From: Nitrospirae bacterium MYbin3
GTDB taxonomy: Bacteria; Nitrospirota; Thermodesulfovibrionia; Thermodesulfovibrionales; Dissulfurispiraceae
Direction of reading: 5' to 3'
DNA: 64,000 nt
Assembly (NCBI GenBank): GCA_002753335.1
Contig: PEAD01000004.1
Coordinates: 1 to 64,000, forward strand
In this document: piece after piece, positions 4,190-10,100 of the stretch
Numbering within the stretch: position 1 is the first letter of the stretch
Layout of the letters: the number at the start of each line of letters is the position of its first letter
Program-made: the position numbers

Positions 4190-7100
4190 CTGAGCTAACG
4201 GTCCATAGCGAACGATTACAATACTAAAAAATTAACCTAGCAACTGTCAACTTGAGTTTTTTATAACTGCATAAATTAAAGTACAGATATAAGTTTTGCA
4301 AGGCTTGGATATTCTCTAAAGCTTAAACCAATATCTTCTTTAAGCAGGCGCAATCCTTCCGGTACATGCTTTAAAAAATATTTTTTATTTTTGACCGTTG
4401 AGAGAAATCCGTAAGCTCCAAGCGCCTGCATGTGCCTTTGTAAGCGGCAAGAAAGAAGAGAGCGTTGAACGTCGTCAGCCATTTCGGTTTTTATATTAGA
4501 AAGATAATATTCCAGCAAGTTTTCTCTAACCGCATCAGGCAAGCGATAATACGGGTCCCAAAGAATTGAGGCGATATCATACGCAGACGGAGCCATGCGA
4601 GCACCTTGATAGTCAATAATTCTGGGCTTCCCATCCATAATCATAATATTTTGCGACTGAAAATCCCTGTGTATTATCGTCTTTTGGAAAGAATCGCATA
4701 ATGATGCAAGCCTGTTAAGCTCATTCTCAATATCATCGATATTTTCGGGCTCTATACCGCGCAAACCTATAACAAATCTCTCTATGAAATATTTCGTTTC
4801 CCACCTGAAATATTCATAGTCAAAAATTCTTGCGGCAAGAGGCGGACATTCATTGACTCTATCTGATGCGTCGGTCTGAATTTTTATTAAGGCATCAAGG
4901 ATTTTTTTGTACATTCGCTCTATGTCCGGCTCTTGCCTTGTGCATTTAAGCCAAGAGTAAAGCGAAAGATCTCCCAAGTCTTCGAATACAGCTTCTTTAC
5001 GGGCATAATCAACCGAAACAAGTACTGGCACAGGAACGCCGCAGGAGGTGAAAAATTTTGTGTATTCGATGTGTCTTTCAAAATCAGCGTCTCCAACTCC
5101 GGATTTCATGACAACACAAGTCCGGCCCGATTCTCCTTTTCTGAAATAGCTTCTATCAGATCCTCCACTGCCTATTAGTACCGAATCAGTGTTTTCGGGC
5201 ATGCCTAAAAACTCATTCTCTTTAATCTTTAGTTCAAAACCCGGTCCAACAATACAGTTGTGATAAGTCCTTGCCTCGGTTTCTGCTCCCGGAAGCAAAA
5301 TACAGTTGCAGAGTTTGGTGCTTTCGCCGATTTTGCTTTCATCCTCGGCAATCACAAATCCGTTAATTTCGGCATTGCTGCATATACTGGTTTCTGAACC
5401 GAAATAAACGGTTTCGCCGTTTGTTCTGAGAAAGTCAACAACAGTTGCCGCATAAGCAGCAGGTGTGCCTATATCGCTCCATTTGGCGCCTGTAAAATCG
5501 CAGGCTCCTACCAGTTCGCCTGAAGCCGAGGTCGCAAGCCATGCATCGACAACACTTGAAGGGCCTGAAGGCAGAAACCTCAAAAACTCAGGCTCATAAA
5601 CAGCAATGCCTGTAAATGCCCTGCTGACAAGGCTTTGAGCGTATTCAGGCCGAGGCAGACCAACATTTTTAAGCAGACCGGCTTCGTTCAGGAAAAGATT
5701 ATTGAACTTCGGAAAGTCATGCACCGCTAAAGTGACCAGATTGCCCTTGTGTTTGTGATAAGAAATAAGTCGGCTGATGTCTATATCAGAAAAAATATCC
5801 GAATTATGAACCACAAAAGCTTTATTTTTAAGAAACGCCTCGGCATTTTTCAGGGCGCCGCCGGTGCCAAGTATTTCATCTTCAATAAATATTTGCGAAT
5901 CGCTAAACGGGGAGAATTCAAGCCACTCTTTTAGAGTCTCTTTTTGATAGTGAAGGTTTATCCCGATTTCACCCGAAACCGAAGCGCGGACCTTCTCCAG
6001 AATTCTTTCCAGCAATGGTTTCCCTGCTATAGGAACAAGCGGCTTGGGAATGCTATTGGTTATGGGTCTTAGCCTTAAGCCAAAGCCGGCAGCAAGGATA
6101 AAGGCGTTGACAGACTCAGCCATAAAGGAGATATTTTTTTCTCACATTTTTGTCGAAAACATTACACTCAGCAACCCACCAGCTTTCGATTTCATCGAGG
6201 TTTTTATGCTCTTCCAATTCGATTCTAAGCCTGTCCGAACCTGCAAGGATGTCTATCGGCATTTTTTCGGTTTCATACTCATACGGTGGAAGTTTCCAGA
6301 GGGGATAAGCAGGGTAAAGTTCGTTTGCAGTCTTCAATATTGCTACTGCTGTCTTAAACGGTTTAAATAATTTTTTGTCTAATACATGAATCTGCGCTCC
6401 GCCGCACAGCCTTCCGGCATGCTTTTGGAATGTGGGCTGAAAATGTAGCGGTCTGAAAGCAACCCCTTTAAGCTTAAAATCCACAAGCCTCTTTACAAAT
6501 GCATCAGGCTCGATAAAAGGCGCGCCGAATATCTCAAAAGGCCTCGTAGTTCCTCGCCCCTCACTGAGATGAGTACCTTCAAGCAGACACATGCCGGGAT
6601 AAACCAATGCTGCATCGATTGTCGGCATGTTTGGCGAAGGGAGAACCCACGGCAGTCCTGTTTTGCCGAACCACATGCCACGTTTCCAGTTCCTCATTTT
6701 TATGATATGCAAATCAAGTTTAGGATAAAAGGCATCTTTGAGATAAAGAGCTATTTCTCCGATCGTCATACCATGTCTGACAGGAAGTGGTCTCTGTCCT
6801 ACAAAGGACGCATAATCCGAATCCAAAACAGGGCCTTCGGTCTGAAGCCCGCCGATAGGGTTCGGCCTGTCGAGTACAACCACAGATTTAGCGGATTCAA
6901 GGCAGGCCTGCATGCAAAGTTCCATAGTCCAGATAAAGGTGTAGTAGCGCGCCCCGACATCCTGCACATCAATGACCATGCAGTCTATATTCTTTAGCAT
7001 CTGAGGCAAAGGTTTTCTGGTATTTCCGTAAAGACTATAAACAGGAAGGCCGGTATTTTTGTCTAAAAACCCTTCCCACTCTATCATGTTGTCCTGAGTC

Positions 7101-10100
7101 TCTCCCCTGATGCCGTGCTGCGGACCGAAAAGAGCTTTAAGTTTAAAATCCTTACAACGAATAGCTGAATGAACCGTATGTTCAAGTTTTATGTTTACGG
7201 AGGCCGGATGAACAAGAAGTCCGATCCGCAAACCCTTGAGCCGCTTAGGCCAGCTTTTGCCGATTAAATCTATACCGGTCAATACGGTTTTTGTGGTAAG
7301 ATTTTTTGCTTTCATCTTTTCTTCAGAAGATTATAGCAGTTTGATGCGGCCTTCGGTCATCTTTAGCACTACAGCCCCGAGTCTGTCCGCTTGTTCTATG
7401 TCGTGAGTAGCTATTATCACCGTTTTCTGGTGGTTGTTGAATTTTAAAATCATATCTTCTATTATGCTTTTGCTTTCGGCATCTACAAAGGCTGTGGGCT
7501 CATCAAGGAAAATGATAGAGGGTTCAAACACCATGGCGCGTGCGATTCCGAGTCTCTGCGTTTCACCGCTCGAAAGCGTTTGGGCATTCTGGCTGCTCCT
7601 ATCTGTAAGCTTTACCAGATTAAGAATCTGATTAACCCTTTCTTTTATATCGTTTCCGGTAATACCCCGTATTCTCAATCCATACCCCGCATTATTGAAC
7701 ACAGACGAGTTGAACACTCCGGTCTTGGGCAAAACTAGAGTCATCTTTCTTTTAAGAGAGATTTCGTGGGGCTGCTCGGCATCGCCGCAAAAAAATCTCA
7801 CCGCCCCCTTATCAGGCTGCTCAAGCAGGGCGCAAATTCTTAGAAAGGTTGATTTGCCGCTGCCGTTGGACCCGATTAGCGCGTAAGTCTTGCCTGCTTC
7901 AAATTCAAAACAGCATTCGTTTAAAACAGCATTGCCACCATATCTTTTGCTTATTTTTTCTGCAGAAAGTTTTAAGCTCATAAGATGTTTTGAACCCCGT
8001 CTTTCTTTTGTACCAAATGCAGGGCAGCGTTAATTAATAGTGAAATAGAGAGCAGGATTATTCCGAGCGCAAGCGCAAGCTCAAAGTTGCCTTTATCGGT
8101 TTCGAGCGCGATGGTTGTGGTCATTACGCGGGTGTATCCTGCAATATTGCCGCCGACTATCAGGATAGCTCCGACTTCGGCCATAACTCTACCCAAGGCA
8201 GCGATTACGGCGGCCATTATTCCGTAACGGGCTTCTTTGACCACAGTTAAGGACTCTTGCAAAGGTGAGGCCCCAAGAGTTGTCGCCGCTTGTCTTATCA
8301 CAGGGTCAACGCCAACTATGGCCGAGTGGGTCAAGGAAACTACGATCGGAAAGGCCAGAATTGTCTGCGCTATAATCATCGCAAACGGCGTATAGAGGAG
8401 CGACAAAAAACCTAATGGGCCGCTTCTTGAAAGAATAAGATAGACGCACAAACCTACCACAACAGGCGGCAGCCCCATAAAGGTATTAATAACACTTATT
8501 ATCGTACCTCTGAAGCGAAATTTTTTCAGACCGGTAAAAGCTCCAATCGGGATGCCTGCAATTGAAGCAAGACACAAGGCGGTCAAAGAAACCTTAAGCG
8601 ACAGCAGAATGATCGCAAAAAGCTCATGGTCGGTATTTAAAATAAGTCCCAATGCCTTTTCGAACATATCCTGGTGTCGTCCCTTATCCGCTACATTGCG
8701 TTAGGATAAAAAAGCTGATTGCCGTGGCTGTCTTTAAAAGACTTTATGGCCTGCTGCCCTTCTTTCGATATTATCCAGTTCACGAATTCCAGTGCCTCTT
8801 TGTGTTTTACATGTTTGTGTCTTAGGGGATTCACAGCCATAACTCCATATTGGTTGAAAAGCGGCGGGTCACCTTCGAACACAAGCGTCATATCGAGCTT
8901 GTCCCTGTCTTTAACCGCAAGCCATGTACCTCTGTCTCCGATAGTGTATGCCCGCTTCTCGTTTGCTATTCTTTGCGTCTTTTCCATCCCCTGACCTACC
9001 TCAAGATACCACTTTTGACCTTTTGGATCAATGCCGGCTTTTTTCCATATATCAAGCTCTTTGATATGGGTTCCTGATTTATCCCCTCTCGAAACAAACA
9101 ACGCATTGTCGGCAGCTATTTTTTTAAAAACCTCGATAACAGTCTTTGAACGTTTAATTTTAGATGGATCATCCTTAGGTCCGATTATTATAAAATCATT
9201 GTACATAACATCATAGCGACTCGCAAACCAACCTTCCTCAAGCGCTTTCAGTTCAAGTTCTTTAGCATGAACCAATACCACATCCGCATCGCCTCTCTTG
9301 CCCATCTCGATGGCCGCCCCTGTACCCCTCGCAACAACTTTCACTTTAATGCCTGTCTTTTTTTCAAAGGCAGGCATTATATGTCCAAGCAGTCCTGAAT
9401 TCTCGGTGCTAGTAGTCGAGGCGCAGATTATTGATGTTTCGGCAGATACTTGAGTTGTAATACAAAGACCTATTATTGCCGACAATAAAAAAACAATTCT
9501 CCCCATACGCCTAAGTTTCGAAAACAGGGTCCTTTTTTAGAAGGTCATGCAGGGTTTCGGCGCTGAGTGGTTTGCTGAAGTAGTAGCCCTGTATTTCATC
9601 ACAGTTGTTTGATCGCAGAAATTCGAGCTGATTCCGGGTTTCGACCCCTTCAGCTACGACTTTATGATGAAGCCCATGAGCCAATGCTATTATCGATTCT
9701 ACAACTCTGCAATTTTCGGGGATGGTCAAGTCTGATATGAAAGAGGCATCTATTTTAAGTTCGTCCAATGAAAACTTATTCAGGTAATTCAGTGACGAGT
9801 AGCCGGTCCCAAAATCGTCTATAGAAACACTTACCCCCGCATCTCTTAAATCGTTAAGCATGCTTATTGTTCCGGTTATATCCTCGATGATAGTGGATTC
9901 GGTTATCTCCAGCATCAAGTATTTGGGGTCAAGTTTAGTTTCGCAAAGTATTTCTTTTACGACCGACAGAAAGTCACGTTTCCTGAACTGCCTGACCGAT
10001 AAATTAACAGAGACTCTTATCGGCCTTAGGCCCTCGTCCTGCCATTCCTTATTCTGGCGGCAGGCTTCTCGCAAGGCCCATTCTCCGAGCGGGATTATCA

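What a model noticed while it worked through the whole genome (the two positions that open the first line are those of the whole stretch)
4276..7315. MurU-AmgK fusion: one-gene MurNAc salvage next to NamZ
A 615-aa protein joins a MurU-like nucleotidyltransferase to an AmgK-like kinase and follows the exo-muramidase gene namZ. It is likely a bifunctional enzyme that turns free MurNAc released by NamZ straight into UDP-MurNAc, a compact peptidoglycan recycling route across the class. A fused AmgK-MurU is undescribed and would be a single-gene cassette for MurNAc-probe labelling of cell walls.
Evidence so far: g02060: best NCBIfam hit MurU NF045761 (E 4e-27, residues 6-222) and AmgK NF045759 (E 5e-18, residues 324-612); PDB hits include MurU structures. 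g02061 is 47% identical to B. subtilis NamZ. The APH-NamZ neighbour pair occurs in at least 153 of 316 order genomes and 820 genomes overall. One open frame of 598-682 aa covering both halves in 16 of 20 class genomes tested. Paper searches 131, 139 and passages of PMC11957156 and PMC8054146 show no fusion.
(Added by a program. Inside this text positions count along the whole contig: contig position 1 is position 1 of the stretch shown here. "Call 12" and the like, gene names such as g00115 and contig names such as C1 are that model's own, and its searches are not shown. The text may have been shortened before it was handed on; [...] marks where a part breaks off. The agent that wrote the report below was given it as the finding of a first reader that could run no searches.)

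Follow-up and report, generated by a model that had tools for sequence, protein, structure and literature searches.

The report
Cell-wall sugar recycling without AnmK
Two overlapping genes, a cytoplasmic NamZ-like glycosidase and a fused sugar kinase-nucleotidyltransferase, take the place of the usual AnmK-based step of cell-wall recycling in related bacteria, so they likely form an untested shortcut in which the glycosidase would open the anhydro ring of the wall sugar and the fused enzyme would reactivate it.

Summary
The fusion is real: one 615-aa frame (nucleotidyltransferase, short beta-helix, AmgK-like kinase) whose start overlaps namZ by 8 nt. It is present in 117 of 151 class genomes, 115 with a signal-peptide-less NamZ. 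The scan found this cassette before on other DNA (e1-1462187, e1-2194112). New here is what it replaces. All 21 AnmK-bearing class genomes lack it. In one genome murQ-anmK sits in the same slot beside nagZ-ampG-amidase-nagA. Short NamZ and full-length AnmK did not co-occur in 101 Nitrospirota (43 vs 55) or 201 Desulfobacterota-phylum genomes (97 vs 23), while NagZ is kept with both. This NamZ is a separate subfamily, with Gln at the putative catalytic Glu and its own conserved residues. The host has lytic transglycosylases, AmpG and NagZ, which should yield anhydro-MurNAc, but no AnmK. Best reading (0.55): the NamZ-like enzyme hydrolyses 1,6-anhydro-MurNAc to MurNAc, replacing AnmK plus MupP, and the fusion makes UDP-MurNAc. 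The fusion's role alone is about 0.8. No enzyme was assayed; both halves miss NCBIfam cut-offs; B. subtilis accumulates anhydro-MurNAc despite having NamZ.

The parts
4276..6123 (-). Fused nucleotidyltransferase - short beta-helix - AmgK-like kinase, 615 aa
   Evidence: (AF2 pLDDT 93, pTM 0.88)
5416..6123 (-). MurU-like nucleotidyltransferase domain (residues 1-236); invariant G13, R17, K27, N107, D109, W215, D217; no conserved EKP
5218..5415 (-). Short left-handed beta-helix-like segment (about residues 237-302); also present in split nucleotidyltransferase genes of about 310 aa
4279..5187 (-). AmgK-like APH-fold kinase domain (residues 313-615); invariant H485-R486-D487, N492, D504, Q506, Y515-D516, R563
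6116..7315 (-). Signal-peptide-less NamZ-like (GH171) protein, 399 aa; proposed anhydro-MurNAc hydrolase; stop overlaps the fusion start by 8 nt
7085..7120 (-). Subfamily signature: Gln66 (Glu in 4K05, 4JJA and secreted paralogs) and Gln74-Asp75-Asn76-Met77
4093..4204 (-). tRNA-Lys(CTT) 4131-4204 and terminator-like hairpin 4093-4121 downstream; boundary of the cassette, not part of it

Best explanation
The two genes are a conserved cassette that replaces anmK-murQ in related genomes and likely recycles the cell-wall sugar: the cytoplasmic NamZ-like protein is predicted to hydrolyse the 1,6-anhydro bond of anhydro-MurNAc, and the fused enzyme would then turn the freed MurNAc into UDP-MurNAc. 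Steps: (1) lytic transglycosylases release GlcNAc-anhMurNAc-peptides, AmpG imports them, an AmiA-type amidase and NagZ trim them (genes shown; activities inferred from families). (2) The NamZ-like protein opens the ring, on the free sugar or on the disaccharide, doing the job of AnmK plus MupP without ATP (inferred from gene distribution only). (3) The C-terminal kinase makes MurNAc-alpha-1-phosphate and (4) the N-terminal domain uridylylates it (inferred from homology, fold and context; about 0.8 on its own).
For: Exclusion in the class (151 genomes): fusion family 117, short NamZ 117, both 115, AnmK 21, MurQ 20 (all among the AnmK genomes), overlap of AnmK with fusion or short NamZ 0. Six families hold both types, so the swap is not one event (family labels). 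Same-slot swap: G060 has nagZ-ampG-amiA-nagA-[anmK<-murQ]-livHMGF where G100, G032, G007 and G044 have nagZ-ampG-(amiA)-nagA-M48-[fusion<-namZ]-livHMGF. Nitrospirota phylum sample (101): full-length AnmK 55, short NamZ 43, both 0, neither 3. Second phylum (201): of 115 genomes with the kinase and NagZ, 94 have short NamZ, 14 AnmK, 0 both, 7 neither. NagZ is kept in 96 of 97 short-NamZ genomes and directly precedes namZ on the same strand in at least 15, so NamZ acts with NagZ, not instead of it. Own genome: 4 SLT-family genes, AmpG, NagZ, AmiA-like, NagA-like and MurA found; AnmK, MurQ and GH73 glucosaminidase not found. AmiA-family amidase acts on GlcNAc-anhMurNAc-peptide (PMC4600125 passages); E. 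coli AmpG did not take up non-anhydro fragments (PMC7670621 passages). Distinct subfamily: no signal peptide; Q66 in 68 of 73 short vs 0 of 18 long or other paralogs; Q74, E252, Y345, E346 in 73 of 73 vs 0 of 18.
Against: No assay. Wild-type B. subtilis, which has a secreted NamZ, accumulates anhMurNAc in the medium (PMC8054146 passage), so the founding member evidently does not clear it. Gln at the putative catalytic Glu could mean a weakened or non-catalytic protein; 5 of 32 checked short NamZs of the second phylum keep Glu. Both fusion halves miss NCBIfam cut-offs and profile searches rank GDP-mannose pyrophosphorylases and tlr0611 above MurU. T. forsythia AmpG also imports non-anhydro GlcNAc-MurNAc, so AmpG is not proof of an anhydro substrate. 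AmpG was not found in G126, a single-contig genome with the cassette. Long or divergent NamZ paralogs do co-occur with AnmK (3 class, 4 second-phylum genomes) and were set aside before counting. Two redundant routes could exclude each other without sharing a substrate. Genomes are related and many are incomplete (own 93.7%).
Confidence: 0.55

Rival explanations
1. One reading: the NamZ-like protein is an ordinary exo-beta-N-acetylmuramidase that frees MurNAc from imported MurNAc-GlcNAc or longer glycan pieces, working alternately with NagZ; terminal anhMurNAc is simply lost. The fusion makes UDP-MurNAc.
For: All three characterised GH171 enzymes cleave beta-MurNAc glycosides. 56 positions including E246 and R254 are shared with secreted paralogs. 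nagZ-namZ adjacency also fits alternate trimming.
Against: No GH73 glucosaminidase found in 5 of 5 genomes tested, all with 3-6 SLT genes. The same ampG-nagZ-amiA cluster feeds AnmK in G060. Ordinary long NamZs coexist with AnmK whereas this subfamily never did in these samples. The published survey says NamZ is mostly missing where the AmgK-MurU route is present.
Confidence: 0.2
2. The slot is ring opening, but not plain hydrolysis by NamZ alone: the Gln variant is a binding or accessory subunit, or transfers the sugar to another acceptor, and needs the fused kinase to complete the step.
For: Gln replaces the putative catalytic Glu; genes overlap and co-occur in 115 of 117 genomes.
Against: In the second phylum namZ is often far from the kinase gene and next to nagZ instead; the subfamily has its own conserved acidic residues (D75, E252, E346, E348) that could replace the lost acid (their 3D position was not checked).
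Confidence: 0.13
3. The fusion salvages another sugar or uses another nucleotide (for example GlcNAc to UDP-GlcNAc, or a GDP-sugar), and MurNAc is not its product.
For: N-terminal half plus beta-helix resembles GDP-mannose pyrophosphorylases by sequence and fold; AmgK is described as a MurNAc/GlcNAc kinase.
Against: EKP not conserved (13 of 79 rows scored) while present in 4 of 4 paralogs; lowest rmsd and highest identity among the listed nucleotidyltransferase structures is MurU; the family excludes MurQ, the MurNAc-specific catabolic step, as AmgK-MurU does in proteobacteria; anmK-linked orthologs have the same beta-helix tail and similar low scores.
Confidence: 0.1

Closest known systems
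Anabolic recycling route AnmK-MupP-AmgK-MurU (Pseudomonas, Caulobacter, Legionella; PMC5371407, PMC13046382, passages)
   Same: AmgK-like kinase and MurU-like transferase, linked to ampG and nagZ, exclusive with MurQ.
   Different: Kinase and transferase are one polypeptide with a beta-helix spacer; AnmK is not found; a NamZ-like gene fills its place; both halves fall far below the curated cut-offs.
GH171 exo-beta-N-acetylmuramidases BsNamZ, TfNamZ1, TfNamZ2 (PMC8054146; 10.1101/2021.12.02.470905)
   Same: NamZ_N and NamZ_C domains over cut-off; E 7e-79 to B. fragilis 4K05; shared conserved core.
   Different: No signal peptide; Gln for the putative catalytic Glu; extra QDNM and YEYE segments; tied to AmgK-MurU and exclusive with AnmK.
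E. coli-type catabolic route AnmK-MurQ
   Same: Occupies the same genomic slot and has the same upstream genes in relatives (G060).
   Different: Mutually exclusive with this cassette; ends in GlcNAc-6-phosphate instead of UDP-MurNAc.
Tannerella forsythia salvage (AmpG, LytB, NamZ1, MurT, MurK, MurQ; AmgK, MurU)
   Same: Uses GlcNAc-anhMurNAc without a predicted AnmK, a gap the authors leave open (PMC7670621).
   Different: Its NamZs carry predicted signal peptides; the better candidate there is the lytB gene beside ampG, not this subfamily (untested).

Membership tests
MurU (NF045761, NF045697) | Score above curated cut-off | tested here: not met
   95/250 and 65/370 bits. Caulobacter, whose route is experimentally supported, also stays under the NF045761 cut-off in the control.
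MurU (NF045761, NF045697) | Nucleotidyltransferase fold and catalytic signature (GxGxR, K, NxD, WxDxG) | tested here: met
   Invariant in 122 of 122 aligned fusions; Z 26.1, rmsd 2.1 to 4Y7T.
MurU (NF045761, NF045697) | Minimal single domain without beta-helix | tested here: not met
   About 65-residue beta-helix-like tail; 4Y7T chain is 231 aa.
MurU (NF045761, NF045697) | MurNAc lactyl-binding residues (Arg202 region, role recalled) | tested here: inconclusive
   MurU never ranked in the five printed alignments; the structure paper was not held.
MurU (NF045761, NF045697) | MurNAc-alpha-1-P + UTP gives UDP-MurNAc | not testable with these tools
   Needs enzyme assay.
AmgK (NF045759, NF045698) | Score above curated cut-off | tested here: not met
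   65/550 and 35/500 bits; Caulobacter also under the NF045759 cut-off; anmK-linked kinases score 60-130.
AmgK (NF045759, NF045698) | APH-fold kinase with intact catalytic motifs, gene paired with a MurU-like transferase | tested here: met
   HRD, N, D-x-Q, YD invariant; Z 28.3 to 3CSV; it is the genome's only NF045759 match; fused here, adjacent in split orthologs.
AmgK (NF045759, NF045698) | Anomeric phosphorylation of MurNAc/GlcNAc | not testable with these tools
   Needs enzyme assay.
NamZ / GH171 | PF07075 and PF20732 above cut-off | tested here: met
   277 and 177 bits.
NamZ / GH171 | Putative catalytic Glu at the tip of strand beta-2 (Glu92 of BsNamZ) | tested here: not met
   Gln66 aligns with Glu in 4K05 and 4JJA. 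Mapping to BsNamZ Glu92 is inferred from motif and offset; the residue is only proposed as catalytic.
NamZ / GH171 | Export signal as in the characterised members | tested here: not met
   Mature-domain motif starts within the first 12 residues in most cassette copies, with no hydrophobic leader (by inspection, no predictor run).
NamZ / GH171 | Cleaves pNP-MurNAc or MurNAc-GlcNAc | not testable with these tools
   Needs enzyme assay.

The most novel reading that the evidence does not exclude
A cytoplasmic GH171 subfamily is a 1,6-anhydro-MurNAc hydrolase, an activity I found no report of, defining a third, ATP-saving route of peptidoglycan sugar recycling (NagZ, anhydro hydrolase, fused AmgK-MurU) that is the majority route in Thermodesulfovibrionia and in the sampled Desulfobacterota. 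A signal-peptide-less SpoIID/LytB family may solve the same ring-opening problem at the disaccharide level in genomes lacking NagZ, and could explain how AnmK-less Bacteroidota such as Tannerella use anhydro fragments.
Probability: 0.5. Interest if true: 0.85.

Novelty: new variant of a known kind. Interest (0 to 1): 0.72.

Why it matters
AnmK is the only enzyme for anhydro-MurNAc named in the papers I read, and how bacteria without it reuse the sugar is stated as unexplored (PMC7670621). The distribution here names a candidate and makes the question a one-day LC-MS assay. A hydrolase would reach UDP-MurNAc with one ATP fewer than the Pseudomonas route, which suits energy-limited anaerobes (inference). 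It would add a new reaction to GH171 and correct the view that NamZ and the anabolic route rarely co-occur. The fusion on its own is modest: two adjacent genes joined in their operon order.

Tried and rejected
Artefactual fusion: rejected. Link to the flanking tungstate transporter or phage remnant: rejected, flanks differ between genomes. Pattern scan of genome contigs found only 3 loci. Kinase-only homolog search returned mostly fragments of the same fusion. Residue-level comparison with MurU failed because MurU never entered the printed alignments. AlphaFold of NamZ was run without an alignment and is unusable, pLDDT 35; no fold search was run on it, so subfamily residues were not placed in 3D. 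The nucleotidyltransferase tree was mostly unresolved and had no characterised MurU in it; the NamZ tree is the quick one. First reading of the SpoIID/LytB gene as a third AnmK substitute was narrowed: it also replaces NagZ (4 of 26 keep NagZ). No RNA holder was listed. Promoter scan was at chance level (14 vs 10 +/- 3). Fisher tests overstate because genomes are related and are not relied on. MupP, MltG and other hydrolytic muramidases were not searched. No complex prediction was sent. Literature searches listed no paper on a fused AmgK-MurU or an anhMurNAc hydrolase.
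Full report
OBSERVATION. The window holds a 615-aa ORF at 4276-6123(-) and a 399-aa ORF at 6116-7315(-) whose stop overlaps the first by 8 nt. The long protein has an NTP_transferase domain and an APH domain; the short one has both NamZ domains. NCBIfam's best hits are MurU (95 bits, cut-off 250) and, for the C-terminal half, AmgK (65 bits, cut-off 550). An AlphaFold model from 122 sequences is confident (pLDDT 93) and shows a short beta-helix-like segment between the halves. Its N-terminal domain matches MurU 4Y7T with Z 26.1 and rmsd 2.1 over 216 residues, although GDP-mannose pyrophosphorylase and tlr0611 score higher (Z 28.7, 28.6) by also covering the beta-helix; the kinase matches 3CSV with Z 28.3. 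Homolog names place the organism in Nitrospirota, probably Thermodesulfovibrionia (the class name is my inference).

SPREAD. Of 151 class genomes, 135 had a match; I counted 117 as family members (best E 2.7e-55 or lower) and dropped 18 whose best E was 2e-21 or higher as probable nucleotidyltransferase paralogs. 104 of the 117 have an open frame of at least 590 aa (hand count). namZ is directly upstream in 28 of 31 loci, and wider loci show that only this pair is conserved while flanks change. A second Nitrospirota family outside the class has the pair in 9 of 10 loci. Fusions also occur in Lentisphaeraceae and Hydrothermia (2 of 10 clusters looked up named a taxon), and 768 clusters at 50% identity score E below 1e-30. 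In 201 genomes of the phylum of G152 (a Desulfobacterales genome; phylum name Desulfobacterota inferred) 140 have the kinase, mostly as a separate gene of about 340 aa just after a separate transferase, in the order of the fusion.

WHAT IT REPLACES. In the class, AnmK was found in 21 genomes and MurQ in 20 of those; none of the 21 has the fusion or the short NamZ. Short NamZ was found in 117 genomes, 115 shared with the fusion; four genomes with only a long NamZ frame (about 790-850 aa) were set aside, three of which have AnmK. Thirteen genomes have neither route. A GH3 NagZ-like gene is in 141 of 151. Six families contain both types. In G060 the order is nagZ, ampG, amiA-like, nagA-like, anmK, murQ, livHMGF; in G100, G032, G007 and G044 the same flanks enclose an M48 gene, the fusion and namZ. 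In a phylum-wide Nitrospirota sample of 101, which overlaps the class sample, full-length AnmK was in 55 and short NamZ in 43, with no overlap; I dropped three AnmK hits of about 65 residues inside frames of 1,417-1,450 aa and one 36%-identity NamZ. In the second phylum, AnmK over cut-off was in 23 and short NamZ in 97, overlap 0; nine long, divergent or fragmentary NamZ hits were set aside, four in AnmK genomes, and two of the nine (G253, G293) were not motif-checked. Of 115 genomes with both kinase and NagZ, 94 have short NamZ, 14 AnmK, 7 neither. nagZ directly precedes namZ in at least 15 of the 97, from 20 same-contig pairs picked by eye. Where AnmK and the kinase coexist, they are neighbours in 5 of 5 loci fetched, chosen for that proximity. 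These are samples of related, partly incomplete genomes: not found is not absent.

THE NAMZ IS UNUSUAL. Cassette copies begin at the mature-domain motif without a leader. The Glu of the PEHG motif in 4K05 and 4JJA is Gln here. Across 91 sequences, Q66 is in 41 of 41 Nitrospirota and 27 of 32 second-phylum short copies but 0 of 18 long or other paralogs; Q74, E252, Y345 and E346 are in all 73 short copies and none of the 18. Only 32 of the 97 second-phylum copies were checked. The 18 paralogs form one side of a branch with 100% support in a quick tree. The Glu is only a proposed catalytic residue (PMC8054146).

HOST PATHWAY. The genome (93.7% complete) has four SLT-family genes, AmpG over cut-off, NagZ-, AmiA- and NagA-like genes and MurA; AnmK, MurQ and GH73 were not found. 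By the standard scheme these yield cytoplasmic anhMurNAc, which AnmK handles (PMC5371407). After NagZ acts on the imported disaccharide, the only beta-muramyl bond left is the 1,6-anhydro bridge (follows from the chemistry). A beta-muramidase family member that stands where AnmK stands is therefore most simply read as opening that bridge. This step is inference; steps downstream rest on homology and context.

THE TRANSFERASE HALF. Profile searches favour GDP-mannose pyrophosphorylases over MurU. Against that, EK[PG] occurs before the FTG strand in only 13 of 79 rows that could be scored out of 122, while 4 of 4 paralogs in the genome have EKP; that this motif binds hexose is recalled. Transferases and kinases beside anmK score as low on the curated models, and Caulobacter, where the route is supported by mutants, is also under both cut-offs in the controls. 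So membership by score fails, but it works like AmgK-MurU with probability about 0.8.

A THIRD GENE SET. Of 30 kinase-positive genomes with neither AnmK nor short NamZ, 24 have a signal-peptide-less SpoIID/LytB protein, in operons lytB-(ampG)-transferase-kinase in 12 of 15 loci fetched; none of the 97 short-NamZ genomes has it. Its nearest Atlas clusters are mostly Bacteroidota. T. forsythia has lytB beside ampG and uses GlcNAc-anhMurNAc without a predicted AnmK; I did not test orthology.

AGAINST. Wild-type B. subtilis accumulates anhMurNAc although it has NamZ. T. forsythia AmpG imports non-anhydro disaccharide. G126 has the cassette but no AmpG match. Five short copies keep Glu. Hydrolytic muramidases other than GH73 were not searched. 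Nothing was assayed.

LITERATURE SEEN. Passages only: PMC8054146, PMC5371407, 10.1101/2025.03.21.644609 (14), PMC12346966, PMC13691567, PMC4600125, PMC7670621, PMC13046382, PMC5790795. Parts 1-2 of 6 plus passages: 10.1101/2021.12.02.470905 (45, 46, 49). Not read: Renner-Schneck 2015 (not held), Gisin 2013, Hottmann 2021, Xu 2014 and all supplements; Gisin's distribution tables could mention fusions. Ten searches listed no report of the fusion or of an anhMurNAc hydrolase; the library lacks most subscription journals.

VERDICT. Observation confirmed; interpretation partly supported. The fusion is a variant of known parts and was noted before by this scan. The higher-value result is the three-sample exclusion with AnmK and the same-slot swap, which predict a new activity in GH171. 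Interest 0.72.

Noticed in passing
window 134-3756 (+), 4086-4204 (-): Filamentous-phage-like remnant (Zot-family ATPase 2680-3756, DUF2523 2351-2677) abuts tRNA-Lys; 46 bp of the tRNA 3' part recur on contig C60:6300-6345, a likely attachment-site repeat.
   Followed up: partly
L170-L179, L182, L184 (e.g. L173:4732-6108): Signal-peptide-less SpoIID/LytB family in lytB-(ampG)-transferase-kinase operons; 26 of 201 genomes, exclusive with short NamZ, mostly without NagZ and AnmK; close clusters in Bacteroidota, often fused to DUF4922.
   Followed up: partly
L150-L165: A second, 780-870 aa NamZ type with a leader and PEHG motif occurs as an optional paralog and coexists with AnmK.
   Followed up: partly
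window 7331-9506 (-): tupABC-like tungstate ABC transporter ends 15 nt before namZ; this neighbourhood was seen only here and in L001.
   Followed up: no
G055:C398:5091-6958; G091:C1:751117 and 2007678: The two halves appear in separate frames (adjacent in G055, far apart in G091): possible real fission or assembly error.
   Followed up: no
L125, L134, L140, L142, L149: Five short NamZs keep PEHG but carry Q74-D75, E252 and the YE motif: a possible intermediate clade useful as assay controls.
   Followed up: no
window 11865-16866 (+): Start of a sugar-biosynthesis cluster (NusG-like, epimerase/dehydratase, aminotransferase, acetyltransferase, NeuB-like), read by eye from translations, after tRNA-Leu at 11678-11763.
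   Followed up: no
G064, G070, G098, G130: Four near-complete class genomes lack the fusion, NamZ, AnmK and the GH3 gene in these searches: possible loss of sugar recycling.
   Followed up: no
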